Source of the DNA: Escherichia phage slur01
Sequence record: NC_028831.1
Reading direction: 5' to 3' (one strand)
Length of the DNA: 61,235 nt
Shown here: one piece after another, positions 40,531-43,500 of the stretch
Layout: every line of letters starts with the position of its first letter
Position numbering within the stretch: position 1 is the stretch's first letter
Position numbers and translations under genes: made by a program
Notes under the pieces: generated by a model
Databases searched by the model: none
What the model saw: only the letters and a program-made list of their open reading frames with translations
Told to the model about the DNA's origin: nothing

Positions 40531-43500
40531 ATGGCAACTCGTTTACGTGGTACTTTAGTTGATGGTTTGAACAAGCCTATTATCAACGCTACAGTTGCGC
40601 TTTTAGCTAAAGGAAACAGTCTTACCGTATTATCCGGCAGCGAAGCTATCTTTAAAACAAGTGCAACCGGAACTTATGATATTACAGTCCAGACAGGTTA
40701 TTACAAGGTTATTATCGGTCCACAGGGCGTAGAGCCATATAAAGCTGGTGAAATTGCTATTTACGCGGATAGTAAAGAAGGTACGCTGAATAACTATTTA
40801 ACTACATGGGCACCGGAAGAATTAACTCCGGAAGTTATTGCTCAGGTAAAAGATTTGGTTGCACAAGCAGAGACGGCTAAGAATGCTTCAGCTTCGTCTG
40901 CTACTAAATCCGAGCAAGAACGCGTTAAAGCAGAAGCTGCTGCTAGAAAGGCAGAAGACACTGCTAATGGTATGAAGGCGTCTATTGGTCTTAGCAATGT
41001 TCCAAGACATGTAGCAGATATTAGTGGAAACCCTTCTGAGTTCTTAGGGTTTATACGCATATTAAGGACAACTACTGTCGGTTATCCTTCAATTGCTTCT
41101 GGTGAAACAGTATTAGCTGGTTTTGTGTCACCGATGGATGGAACTCCAGGATATACTGGTGTATTTGTTGGAGATGTGACTGGGACTTTATATACTTACC
41201 GTTGGACTTCAGTTACTGGCGCTATATGGTGGAAACATGTAAAATCAGAAACAATAGACAGATATACACAATTATCCGATTCCACTGCTATTTATAATGC
41301 GTCAAAGAGCGCTACCCTTGTCATAAAAGATACTAAAACTTGGGGAGCTTGGGACAATCAAAGCTCCAAATACATACCTCTGGCAATAGCACAGGGTGGC
41401 ACTGGAGGGGTTACTGACGCGGACGCTCGTACAAACTTAAAGCTTGGCGCTAACGATACCCCGCAATTCAGAAACCTTAATCTTGTTACCGTAGCGGACA
41501 CGGCGCAAGCCCCTTCCGGTATTGTAAGCGGTTATTTAAATAATAGCTCTGGAGTTCAAAGATGCCGCTACCGCATATATTCTGAAATACGCGGTGACAA
41601 TAAAGCGTGGTTAACCTTACACCTTCAATCAGACACAGCAACAAATAAATATGCTGGTCTAAGCGTTGATGGTAATTTTCAAATCAATGGAAGTTTTATC
41701 GGTAACGCTTTAAGTCTTAGTGATGTCCCTACTTCTAAAGTAAATCTTCAAATTAATAGATTTGTTCAGAACACTGGTGAAACTGATGTGGTTAACCATG
41801 CAGGGACAGCTCAAATTTTTATCACTGATAATAAAAATTGGGGAGCTTACGATAAAGAATCAAAGCGCCATATTCCTTTGCCCATTTCACAAGGAGGTAC
41901 TGGAGCGGTTACTATTGCTGATGCTAAAACCAATCTTCAAATTCCATCTGTAGGTGGGGGTGATTGGTTAACTTATAACGCCCCTCCTGGCGTGGAAGCT
42001 GGAAAGTATTATCCCGTTATTATTGATATGGCGTATAGTTCTTTATATGCTTCCGGCGCTTTTATAGATATAAAAACAAAATCCGCCTCTGGCGATGATC
42101 CAATGAACTGCTGCACTTTTAACGGTTTTATCCGATGTGGTGGTTGGAGCGATCGTAAAGACGGTGGTTATGGTTACTTCAATAACTATGCAAGAAATGA
42201 AATTGCAATAAAATGTATTCTTTCTTCTTCTAAAGATGCAGAAAGGTACGTTGCCATATACGTTGAAGGTCGTGGTTTCCCACTCCAGTTACGTGTCCCC
42301 GCATTCTGCGAAGTAACAGTACCAACATCCAATTTCACATATAAGAATACTACATATGCTTGGGGCACTGCTAATCCTGCGACGGATTCAACTGCTGTTC
42401 TTACTATGTTTGATTTTTCTTTAAACCGCATAGGATTCTATCAAGCAACAACGGAAGGTAACTATTATATAGGGAATGGGGAACGTATTGTTTTATCGCA
42501 CGGGATGTCTGTAGGGGATGAATTAAGATTAACCACACCTAAAATCTCTTTCAGCGGGACCATTGCAGCGGGTAACGGTGTCATTGCAGATGGAACATCT
42601 GTATCCAATGCCACTTTTTACTCGCGTTACAGAGTCGGTGATGTAATATATGGTGGCGAGTTCCGTGCAAGTGAAAACGCTGCCCAAGTTATTGTCAGAG
42701 ATCCAGCGGGTATTAACCATCAGTTCTTTAACTTTAATCTTAATGGAACGTTTAGTCCTCCAAACGGCTTGTTGACTTCCACTGGTAATGATTGGAACGG
42801 TCAAATTAATACCGTCAATAAATTCTATGCGATTGCTGGAGGGACTAACGGACCAGAACATGAAGGGAACATGGTTTATGGCGGTATCCATGTAGGATTC
42901 AGCGGAAACTATGGATTTCAGCTAAGTGGTCGAAATGGTAAATTTTTTGCAAGAACGTTTGAAGCAGGTAATCCAACTACATGGGACCGGATTATTGTTG
43001 CAGGTTTATATGGTATAGGTAGACAGTCTATGCTTCTACCAGAAGGAGGACAAGCTGGATTCTATTCGGATAGTCGGGGAGACACTCAATGGGCCCCTGT
43101 TAATGGTGCAGGTTTTCAGTCTTCATATGATCCGTATAGGATTTTCCAGTTTTGGATGAATACTTCTGGAGGTGCATATGTCCGATTCAATGATAGTGGT
43201 AACGCTCAAGCCACTAAAACAGATAAGCCCTGGGCAACACTTCAAGTCGCTGGTACATCGGATATTAATTTCAAACGTGTTCACGGTGAAATGGACACAG
43301 ACGTTGCGTTAGATAATATTAGCAAGCTTGAATTTGTTTATTTCAACTACTTGTCCGACGGTCCGGAGCGTGACATTCGCAGAGGTATCATAGCGCAACA
43401 GGCTCAGGAAGTTGATCCTGAATATGTGCATAGCGCTGAAACATCCGGAAAAATGACTTTGGACTCTAACCCATTGTTATTGGATGCATTAGCTGCAATA

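What the first reader, a model, noticed from the sequence alone, without database searches (positions are those of the whole stretch)
41320..41960. Internal duplication in the tail fibre and C-terminal self-cleaving chaperone motif
A block of about 40 residues (NKNWGA-W/Y-D...IPL-x-I-x-QGGTG-x-x-T-x-AD-A-x-TNL) occurs twice about 170 residues apart, and the C-terminus carries a motif like that of intramolecular chaperone domains that auto-cleave after trimerisation. Modular repeats suggest recombinational shuffling of receptor-binding segments.
Basis: partly seen in the sequence, partly recalled or inferred. Interest (0 to 1): 0.35.

Follow-up and report, generated by a model that had tools for sequence, protein, structure and literature searches.

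The report
Repeated shaft module in phage fibre
The flagged repeat is two old copies of a common 62-residue building block in the shaft of a coliphage side tail fibre that also ends in a self-cleaving folding chaperone; both features are real, but they are ordinary for this class of protein.

Summary
The ORF at 40531-43617 (+) is the lateral tail fibre of a Seuratvirus-like coliphage.

- **Repeat:** a 64-residue block occurs twice, at 41254-41445 and 41752-41943, exactly 166 residues apart. It is 48% identical ungapped, with self-alignment score 168 against 45±5 for shuffles.
- **Age:** this is not a recent duplication. DNA identity is 57%, and copy 2 is 81% identical to the same-position copy in T5-like phages.
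- **Family:** the block belongs to a widespread fibre-shaft module ending in PLxIxQGGTGxxTxxxAxxNL. About 2,600 protein clusters carry it, with up to five full copies (eight matched stretches) per protein among those checked. Pfam and NCBIfam gave no match to it. No solved structure matching it was found.
- **Recombination:** natural relatives lack exactly one 166-residue period and carry a chimeric junction module. Mosaic boundaries favour conserved stretches, including the GGTG motifs. Recombination at the modules is therefore supported, but the swapped parts are shaft cassettes, not proven receptor binders.
- **Chaperone:** the C-terminus (43258-43614, outside the stated coordinates) is a Peptidase_S74 intramolecular chaperone. 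It has the invariant Ser910/Lys915 pair and an IMC-like predicted fold. Cleavage itself is untested.

Ordinary biology, useful detail, low novelty.

The parts
40531..43617 (+). Lateral (side) tail fibre gene: 1028 aa, 111.1 kDa precursor. The mechanical ORF starts at GTG 40519.
   Evidence: ORF list. RBS and ATG. 97% nt identity to the KS_A3 tail fibre gene and 99.9% to Seurat over the first 1632 nt. Homologues annotated as lateral tail fibre protein in BASEL phages.
40531..40920 (+). N-terminal virion-attachment domain (phage_tail_N, lambda Stf type), aa 1-130.
   Evidence: Pfam PF08400, E 4.7e-23. Matches the solved 94-residue 'Tail fiber protein' chain 9e7m_Ta, E 4.9e-14. This is the most conserved part among Seuratvirus fibres.
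41254..41445 (+). Shaft module copy 1 (aa 242-305): IDRY...WGAWD...IPLAIAQGGTGGVTDADARTNLKL.
   Evidence: Self-alignment. Module HMM E 1.6e-31. AF2 pLDDT 81-89: three strands, a GGTG turn and a short helix.
41446..41751 (+). 102-residue beta-rich domain between the modules (aa 306-407). It ends in SKVNLQ, which echoes the module ending AKTNLQ.
   Evidence: AF2 predicts strands but with low confidence, pLDDT 50-67. No Pfam hit. Relatives P0090 and P0110 carry a different domain at this position. The 20-nt echo is D4.
41752..41943 (+). Shaft module copy 2 (aa 408-471): INRF...WGAYD...IPLPISQGGTGAVTIADAKTNLQI.
   Evidence: Self-alignment. Module HMM E 2.1e-32. 81% identical to the positionally equivalent module of T5-like SP01 and JLBYU43.
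41944..43257 (+). Distal variable part of the fibre (aa 472-909), presumed to carry the receptor-binding tip. This is an inference, not a tested result.
   Evidence: Most divergent region among Seuratvirus fibres. No Pfam or PDB sequence match. nt 1045-2309 of the gene are 76% identical to the T5-like JLBYU43 ltf gene. Lateral fibres of these phages are proposed O-antigen binders (PMC8594841).
43258..43614 (+). C-terminal intramolecular chaperone / Peptidase_S74 domain (aa 910-1028, 13.5 kDa). Predicted scissile bond Thr909|Ser910. Ser910 codon 43258-43260, Lys915 codon 43273-43275.
   Evidence: Pfam PF13884, 36 bits against cutoff 22. S and K invariant; S[DG]xxxK in 47/47 homologous C-termini. 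Matches DT57C LtfA chain 8hqz_d residues 950-1073, E 1e-7. Fold hits 7dc3, 3gw6, 3gud.
43635..43654 (+). Terminator-like hairpin plus T-run just after the fibre gene.
   Evidence: 8-bp stem with 6 GC pairs, followed by TTTTATT. This is a consensus match only.

Best explanation
The gene at 40531-43617 encodes the homotrimeric lateral tail fibre of a Seuratvirus-like (Queuovirinae) coliphage.

The two repeated blocks are paralogous copies of a 62-64-residue fibre-shaft module. The predicted module is a three-stranded beta-meander, then a PLxIxQGGTG turn, then a short helix ending in NL. In this protein the two copies bracket a 102-residue beta-rich domain.

The module is an old, widely shared building block of tail-fibre shafts. 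It occurs in one to three copies in this protein's homologues, and up to five full copies per protein (eight matched stretches counting short GGTG motifs) among the representatives checked. Copies sit either head to tail (63-64 residue spacing) or with one inserted domain (166-170 residue spacing). It is joined to many different attachment and tip domains.

Its primary role is most likely structural, as a trimeric shaft node. Because its C-terminal motif is conserved even between unrelated phages, it also serves as a joint where recombination deletes, adds or swaps shaft cassettes.

The last 119 residues are a Peptidase_S74 intramolecular chaperone. It should template trimer folding of the distal part and then cut itself off between Thr909 and Ser910 using the Ser910/Lys915 pair, leaving a 909-residue (97.6 kDa) mature fibre.

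Shown here: the repeat and its significance, membership of the module family, copy-number variants with chimeric junctions, and the chaperone domain signature and fold.

Inferred: the trimeric structural role, actual cleavage, and receptor (probably O-antigen) binding by the distal part.
For: Repeat statistics.

Ancient duplication: 57% nt identity, and copy 2 is closer to T5-like orthologues (81%) than to copy 1 (50%).

Module distribution:
- It is found in T5-like L-shaped fibres, T1-like, lambdoid, rV5-like and podovirus fibres.
- Among 131 proteins retrieved in the homologue searches, 72 had one matched stretch, 42 two and 17 three, counting partial GGTG-only matches. Spacings cluster at 63-64 and 166-170.
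- An exhaustive profile search gave 2,602 cluster representatives at E<=1e-3 and 61 at E<=1e-30. Up to 5 full modules, or up to 14 short GGTG motifs, per protein were confirmed in the re-scan.
- Partner domains differ: Collar, Phage_tail_C_2, T4 gp34/gp36, S74.

Copy-number variants:
- P0025, P0026, P0028 and P0053 are collinear with the window protein but lack exactly 166 residues.
- The single module of P0026 is M1-type for about 52 residues and then M2-type (IGDAKTNLQI). It sits in a Seuratvirus contig with the same neighbouring genes.
- T5-like VAH1 is 233 residues shorter than JLBYU43, which equals the M1-to-M3 distance, and it has a chimeric module.

Mosaic boundaries against the window fall at aa 285/286, about 390-405 and 465/466 (KS_A8), 240/241 and 300/301 (SeppeHuegi), and 285/286 (CSP1).

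AF2 predicts both modules confidently (pLDDT 81-89) with the same secondary structure.

Chaperone domain: and the T5 pb1 precedent (PMC4690869).
Against: - In the solved phages whose fibre sequences contain the GGTG motif, only the N-terminal part of the fibre was built: about 90 residues in SU10, the N-terminal moiety in DT57C (PMC9509320, PMC10713586).
- Identity transitions are only 1.6-fold enriched at the module C-terminal motifs. They are enriched 3-fold in the conserved core of the inserted domain, and they track conservation in general (rho 0.62). The pairs are not independent, so the modules are not special recombination sites beyond being conserved.
- Cleavage and receptor binding are untested.
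- The direction of the one-period events (deletion or insertion) cannot be told from these data.
Confidence: 0.75

Rival explanations
1. A recent tandem or segmental duplication arose within this phage's fibre gene, by replication slippage or unequal crossover in the recent past.
For: Two in-register copies lie exactly 498 nt apart. Small direct nucleotide repeats sit at equivalent positions (D1, D4, D6).
Against: The copies share only 57% nt identity, 44% at third positions. The same two-copy arrangement with the same spacing occurs in other Seuratviruses and in T5-like SP01. Copy 2 is 81% identical to SP01 and JLBYU43 copies but 50% to copy 1.
Confidence: 0.03
2. The modules are docking sites for a second fibre protein, giving a branched fibre as in DT57C LtfA/LtfB or the proximal/distal fibre proteins of kuraviruses.
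For: - The GGTG motif occurs in DT57C LtfA at 450-467, just before the repeat tract at 478-542 that follows the proposed LtfB-contact region (PMC4728585).
- It occurs twice in the SU10 proximal fibre protein gp12 and four times in KBNP1711 gp12, which is followed by a second gene annotated as tail fiber protein (PMC9509320).
Against: - No second fibre gene follows this one. A terminator-like hairpin follows the fibre gene, and the next ORF is a Gly/Gln-rich protein without fibre signatures.
- Modules also occur in single-polypeptide T5-like fibres and in variable copy number, which fits a shaft element better than a specific docking site.
Confidence: 0.08
3. The module-domain-module unit is a secondary carbohydrate-binding site, so the repeats are themselves receptor-binding segments.
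For: The domain between the modules is exchangeable. Relatives P0090 and P0110 carry a different domain there, which by my own recollection (not tested) resembles fibre knob domains. Lateral fibres of these phages are proposed glycan binders (PMC8594841).
Against: The modules are among the most conserved parts of fibres from phages with different hosts and tips, whereas specificity determinants are expected to vary. The inserted domain has no family or structure match.
Confidence: 0.1
4. The match is chance similarity or a low-complexity artefact.
For: The motif is Gly/Thr/Ala-rich.
Against: The score lies 27 sd above the shuffles. A profile of the module retrieves thousands of proteins; those inspected were tail-fibre proteins, some matching at E as low as 1e-87.
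Confidence: 0.01

Closest known systems
L-shaped / lateral tail fibre proteins of T5-like phages (T5 pb1; LtfA of DT57C; ltf of SP01, JLBYU43, VAH1)
   Same: - The same shaft modules in the same order.
- Gene nt 840-1407 are 82% identical to SP01, and nt 1045-2309 are 76% identical to JLBYU43.
- The same C-terminal S74 chaperone with a T|S-x4-K site (PMC4690869, PMC4728585).
- Dispensable, deletion-prone locus (PMC4728585).
   Different: - The N-terminus is lambda-Stf type (phage_tail_N), not the T5 collar-binding type.
- The distal part has no detectable sequence match to any solved chain, including the T5 pb1 receptor-binding domain described in PMC4690869.
- Single polypeptide, no LtfB.
Intramolecular chaperone (Peptidase_S74) domains of K1F endosialidase, GA-1 neck appendage and MyRF
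   Same: Pfam family, Ser/Lys pair, C-terminal position, and predicted fold (top fold hits 7dc3, 3gw6, 3gud).
   Different: Low sequence identity (15-24% in the fold alignments). The model is of moderate confidence (mean pLDDT 65). Cleavage is not demonstrated for this protein.
Lambda side tail fibre Stf
   Same: Homologous N-terminal attachment domain (PF08400; PDB 9e7m, which I take to be a lambda Stf N-terminal fragment). Gene position downstream of the J-like tip protein.
   Different: From my own knowledge, not tested here: lambda Stf uses a separate assembly chaperone (Tfa) rather than a fused S74 domain.
Short GGTG repeats of other tail fibres (e.g. SU10 gp12, DT57C LtfA, many metagenomic fibres)
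   Same: The last ~22 residues of the module (PLxIxQGGTGAxxxxxARxNL) are the same motif. It occurs alone in arrays of up to 14 confirmed copies.
   Different: Here the motif is fused to a 40-residue beta-meander, making a 62-residue module. No structure is available for either form (PMC9509320, PMC10713586).

Membership tests
Peptidase_S74 / intramolecular chaperone auto-processing domain | Match to Pfam PF13884 above the gathering score | tested here: met
   36.0 bits against cutoff 22, E 8.9e-9, GTG-numbered residues 914-970.
Peptidase_S74 / intramolecular chaperone auto-processing domain | Catalytic Ser at the domain start with Lys five residues later (T5: Thr1263|Ser1264...Lys1269) | tested here: met
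   AGT|S910-DINF-K915. S and K are invariant in the 13-sequence alignment, and S[DG]xxxK is present in 47/47 homologous C-termini. T5 reference: PMC4690869.
Peptidase_S74 / intramolecular chaperone auto-processing domain | Located at the extreme C-terminus of a trimeric fibre or spike protein | tested here: met
   aa 910-1028 of 1028.
Peptidase_S74 / intramolecular chaperone auto-processing domain | IMC fold (mixed alpha/beta body plus long C-terminal helix) | tested here: met
   The AF2 model (mean pLDDT 65) has helices, short strands and a 42-residue terminal helix. The 11 best Foldseek PDB hits are all IMC/ICA domains: 7dc3 E 1.2e-4, 3gw6, 3gud.
Peptidase_S74 / intramolecular chaperone auto-processing domain | Autoproteolytic release after trimer folding | not testable with these tools
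   Needs virion protein mass (97.6 against 111.1 kDa) or an S910A mutant.
Lambda-Stf-type side tail fibre (phage_tail_N) | N-terminal PF08400 domain, with the gene downstream of the J-like tip protein | tested here: met
   PF08400 E 4.7e-23. 9e7m match. J homologue at 37046-40180.
62-residue GGTG fibre-shaft module (family defined here; Pfam and NCBIfam gave no match to it) | Full-length match to the module profile with invariant W-G, L, GGTG and near-invariant A..NL | tested here: met
   Both copies match profile positions 1-62 at E 1e-30 to 1e-32. Conserved columns. Pfam gave no match to this region at E<=1 and NCBIfam none to the whole protein at E<=0.1.
T5 pb1 receptor-binding 'bullet' domain | Sequence similarity of the distal domain to pb1 970-1263 | tested here: not met
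   No solved chain matched the distal part in PDB sequence searches with the whole protein (E<=1) or the last 164 residues (E<=10), and no T5 pb1 chain was returned. Fold was not tested.
Curated tail-fibre repeat families in Pfam (e.g. Phage_fiber_2) | Any Pfam repeat model covering aa 135-909 | tested here: not met
   No hit at E<=1.

The most novel reading that the evidence does not exclude
The 62-residue GGTG module is an undescribed, structurally unsolved domain family that acts as a standard connector of tail-fibre shafts across many unrelated phage groups. Its conserved C-terminal motif would be the natural splice point at which whole shaft cassettes are added, lost or exchanged between phage families. 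If so, it offers a rational junction for engineering fibre length and chimeric host-range fibres.
Probability: 0.4. Interest if true: 0.45.

Novelty: new member of a known kind. Interest (0 to 1): 0.25.

Why it matters
Lateral tail fibres set which O-antigen types a phage can cross, and they are prime targets for host-range engineering. This analysis yields four practical points.

- The exact module boundaries are 41254-41445 and 41752-41943.
- Nature tolerates removal of exactly one 166-residue period.
- The GGTG motif is a working crossover point shared by Seuratvirus and T5-like fibres, which gives concrete splice sites for chimeric fibres.
- The predicted Thr909|Ser910 cleavage site tells proteomics what mass to expect.

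Conceptually it adds nothing new. Fibre mosaicism and fused S74 chaperones are well established.

Tried and rejected
- Word-indexed homologue searches with the 269-residue repeat region and with the module profile returned only 4 and 7 hits. The E-value scale was too strict for short queries. The full-length query and the exhaustive profile search worked instead.
- PDB sequence hits to the GGTG motif (SU10 gp12 7z47_D, DT57C LtfA 8hqz_d) did not help. Only the N-terminal parts of those chains were built.
- The literature search for 'GGTG motif' plus 'tail fiber' found nothing.
- NCBIfam gave no hit for the fibre.
- A pairwise identity-switch scan meant to show breakpoint clustering at the modules gave only modest enrichment and a stronger peak inside the inserted domain. 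I therefore do not claim that the modules are privileged recombination sites.
- Recent duplication and chance similarity were considered and rejected.
- Overlapping small ORFs on both strands within 41320-41960 (e.g. 41762-41953 +) were treated as frame noise. The long frame is conserved in many phages.

Full report
**What is at the locus**

The flagged coordinates lie inside a 3.1-kb ORF (40519-43617, + strand).
- The probable start is ATG 40531, which has a GGGAGA ribosome-binding site 5 nt upstream. Relatives are annotated from the same ATG. All residue numbers below count from it (1028 aa).
- The gene follows a J-like tail-tip gene (37046-40180) and a small minus-strand lipoprotein gene (40215-40448).
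- A terminator-like hairpin follows it at 43635-43654.
- Its DNA is 97% identical to the tail fibre gene of Escherichia phage KS_A3, and 99.9% identical to phage Seurat over the first 1632 nt. The window is therefore a Seuratvirus-like (Queuovirinae) coliphage.
- In the BASEL collection the homologous genes are annotated as lateral tail fibre proteins. These are proposed O-antigen binders and are highly variable downstream of a conserved N-terminus (PMC8594841).

**The repeat is real**

- The best off-diagonal self-alignment is ungapped: aa 242-305 (nt 41254-41445) against aa 408-471 (nt 41752-41943). It has 31/64 identities and scores 168, against 45.4 ± 4.6 (max 58) for 60 shuffles.
- The spacing is exactly 166 residues. 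The block is about 62-64 residues rather than about 40, and it starts 66 nt before the stated start.
- At the DNA level the copies are only 57% identical, with 44% at third codon positions. This is an old duplication kept similar by selection on the protein.
- Copy 2 is 81% identical to the positionally equivalent module of the T5-like phages SP01 and JLBYU43, but only 50% to copy 1.
- No further copy exists anywhere in the window in six frames.

**What the block is**

A profile built from the two copies and iterated on fetched fibre genes finds the same 62-residue unit in many fibres:
- T5-like L-shaped fibres (SP01, JLBYU43, VAH1, HASG4, Bf23);
- a T1-like fibre (Mishu) and a lambdoid fibre (mEp554);
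- an rV5-like fibre (EduardKellenberger);
- the podovirus KBNP1711 gp12.

Copy number and spacing vary.
- Among the 131 proteins retrieved in the homologue searches, 72 had one matched stretch, 42 two and 17 three; this count includes partial, GGTG-only matches. Start-to-start spacings fall into two classes: 63-64 residues (modules head to tail) and 166-170 residues (module, one inserted domain, module).
- An exhaustive HMMER search of 1.84 billion cluster representatives gave 2,602 proteins at E ≤ 1e-3, 529 at ≤ 1e-10 and 61 at ≤ 1e-30.
- A re-scan of the representatives confirmed up to five full modules per protein. P0132 has eight matched stretches: five full modules plus three short motifs. 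Many proteins carry only the last ~22 residues (PLxIxQGGTGAxxxxxARxNL) in arrays of up to 14 confirmed copies.
- Module-bearing proteins end in quite different domains: Collar, Phage_tail_C_2, T4 gp34/gp36 and Peptidase_S74.

Curated resources do not describe it.
- Pfam gave no match to the module region and NCBIfam none to the fibre.
- In PDB entries whose sequences contain the motif (SU10 gp12, DT57C LtfA), only the N-terminal part of the fibre was built.

Structure prediction gives a partial picture.
- AlphaFold2 on aa 236-480, with a 21-sequence alignment, predicts both modules confidently (pLDDT 81-89). Both have the same layout: three strands, a turn at GGTG and a short helix over (A/T)DA(R/K)TNL.
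- The 102-residue domain between them is beta-rich but poorly predicted (pLDDT 50-67).
- Fold searches of this monomer model returned only noise.

**Recombination**

Several natural fibres are collinear with the window protein but lack exactly one 166-residue period: P0025, P0026, P0028 (860-863 aa) and P0053 (SLUR76).
- P0026 sits in a Seuratvirus contig with the same neighbouring genes.
- Its single module is M1-type for about 52 residues (…IPLAIAQGGTGGVT) and then M2-type (IGDAKTNLQI). The joint is therefore inside the GGTG motif.

The same pattern occurs in T5-like phages.
- VAH1 is 233 residues shorter than JLBYU43. That equals the distance from JLBYU43's first to its third module.
- VAH1's one module is a chimera of the two types.

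Nucleotide identity profiles against the window switch sharply at or near module edges:
- KS_A8 at aa 285/286, about 390-405 and 465/466;
- SeppeHuegi at 240/241 and 300/301;
- CSP1 at 285/286.

SP01, a member of a different phage family, shares gene nt 840-1407 at 82% identity. That stretch runs from the GGTG motif of module 1 to the end of module 2.

A cruder scan of 630 sequence pairs tempers this picture.
- Identity switches are enriched 1.6-fold in the two GGTG motifs and depleted in the variable N-terminal part of module 1.
- They are enriched 3-fold in the conserved core of the inserted domain.
- Overall they follow conservation (rho 0.62), and the pairs are not independent.

My reading is that joints form wherever sequence is conserved. 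The modules are the most widely shared such stretches, not dedicated recombination sites.

**The C-terminus**

- GTG-numbered residues 914-970 match Pfam Peptidase_S74 above the curated cutoff (36 against 22 bits).
- The site reads AGT|S910-DINF-K915. T5 pb1 cleaves at Thr1263|Ser1264 with Lys1269 (PMC4690869).
- Ser and Lys are invariant in an alignment of 13 diverse homologous C-termini, and S[DG]xxxK occurs in 47 of 47.
- The region matches DT57C LtfA residues 950-1073 (E 1e-7).
- An AF2 model (mean pLDDT 65) has its 11 best PDB fold hits all among intramolecular chaperone domains: MyRF 7dc3, K1F 3gw6 and GA-1 3gud.
- Predicted products are 97.6 kDa (aa 1-909) and 13.5 kDa, from a 111.1 kDa precursor.
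- Cleavage itself is inferred, not shown.

**Overall**

- the repeat is longer than stated and ancient;
- it is a generic shaft module rather than a demonstrated receptor-binding segment;
- the chaperone motif lies outside the given coordinates;
- recombination at the repeats is real but not unique to them.

Both features are standard for lateral fibres of T5-like and related siphoviruses (PMC4728585, PMC4690869, PMC8594841). The only mildly new element is the delineation of a widespread 62-residue module that matched no curated Pfam or NCBIfam model or solved structure, together with natural one-period copy-number variants.

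Noticed in passing
window 42163-45290: Phage Seurat (KM236243) lacks this 3.1-kb stretch, with about 15 nt of overlap at the junction. Its annotated 602-aa 'tail fiber' gp21 is therefore the window fibre truncated after aa 544, plus 58 read-through residues. It has no distal part and no chaperone domain. This looks like a deletion derivative of a dispensable fibre.
   Followed up: yes
window 40942-44284; locus L012 (SHIN8) 4513-5121: Phage SHIN8 lacks this 3.3-kb stretch, with about 14 nt of overlap. The deletion fuses fibre aa 1 to about 137 to the C-terminus of the downstream ORF, giving a 202-aa product that ends ...PTPPTGCC.
   Followed up: yes
window 43733-45897: KS_A3 lacks this 2.2-kb block of plus-strand accessory genes downstream of the fibre. 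The window is the longest version of the locus among the phages compared.
   Followed up: partly
window 43660-44496 (+), probable start near 43783: ORF with a Gly-rich N-terminus (GGDGFGGEAGAAGIGG...GWGGNGGWGGRG), a Gln/Asn-rich middle with a CCC cluster, and a C-terminus PTPPTPPTGCC. It has no Pfam or NCBIfam match. A hypothetical gene of similar size follows the fibre gene in KS_A8, CSP1, SLUR75 and contig L018; L018 matches the window across this region at 94.6% nt identity. Function unknown.
   Followed up: partly
window 40215-40448 (-), with hairpin 40186-40213: 77-aa lipoprotein gene on the opposite strand between the J-like gene and the fibre gene. Seurat's record annotates it as an apparent moron with a bidirectional terminator. 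It may be a superinfection-exclusion type lipoprotein; this was not tested.
   Followed up: no
window 43534-43617: The last ~84 nt of the fibre gene encode the coiled-coil end of the chaperone, ...RISKLETEVEELKKLVATLVNKEPLP. They stay 95-96% identical in WildeMaa and SLUR75 although the rest of the distal half is below 40% identical. T5-like fibres have their own conserved ending (...LLANKAQ). This may be a lineage-specific 3' homology anchor for cassette exchange.
   Followed up: partly
window 41735-41754 vs 41924-41943: The domain between the modules ends in SKVNLQ|I. This echoes the module ending AKTNLQ|I (17/20 nt identical), so the inserted domain is flanked on both sides by an '..NLx(L/I)' ending, as if it had been spliced into that motif.
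   Followed up: no
relatives P0090 and P0110 (between their two modules): These fibres carry a different ~100-residue domain between the modules (…NLNDIKGTTAGFYYQ…NYPIQLAGALRVLK…W.DW…). By my recollection it resembles fibre knob domains. This suggests the inter-module position is an exchangeable slot.
   Followed up: no
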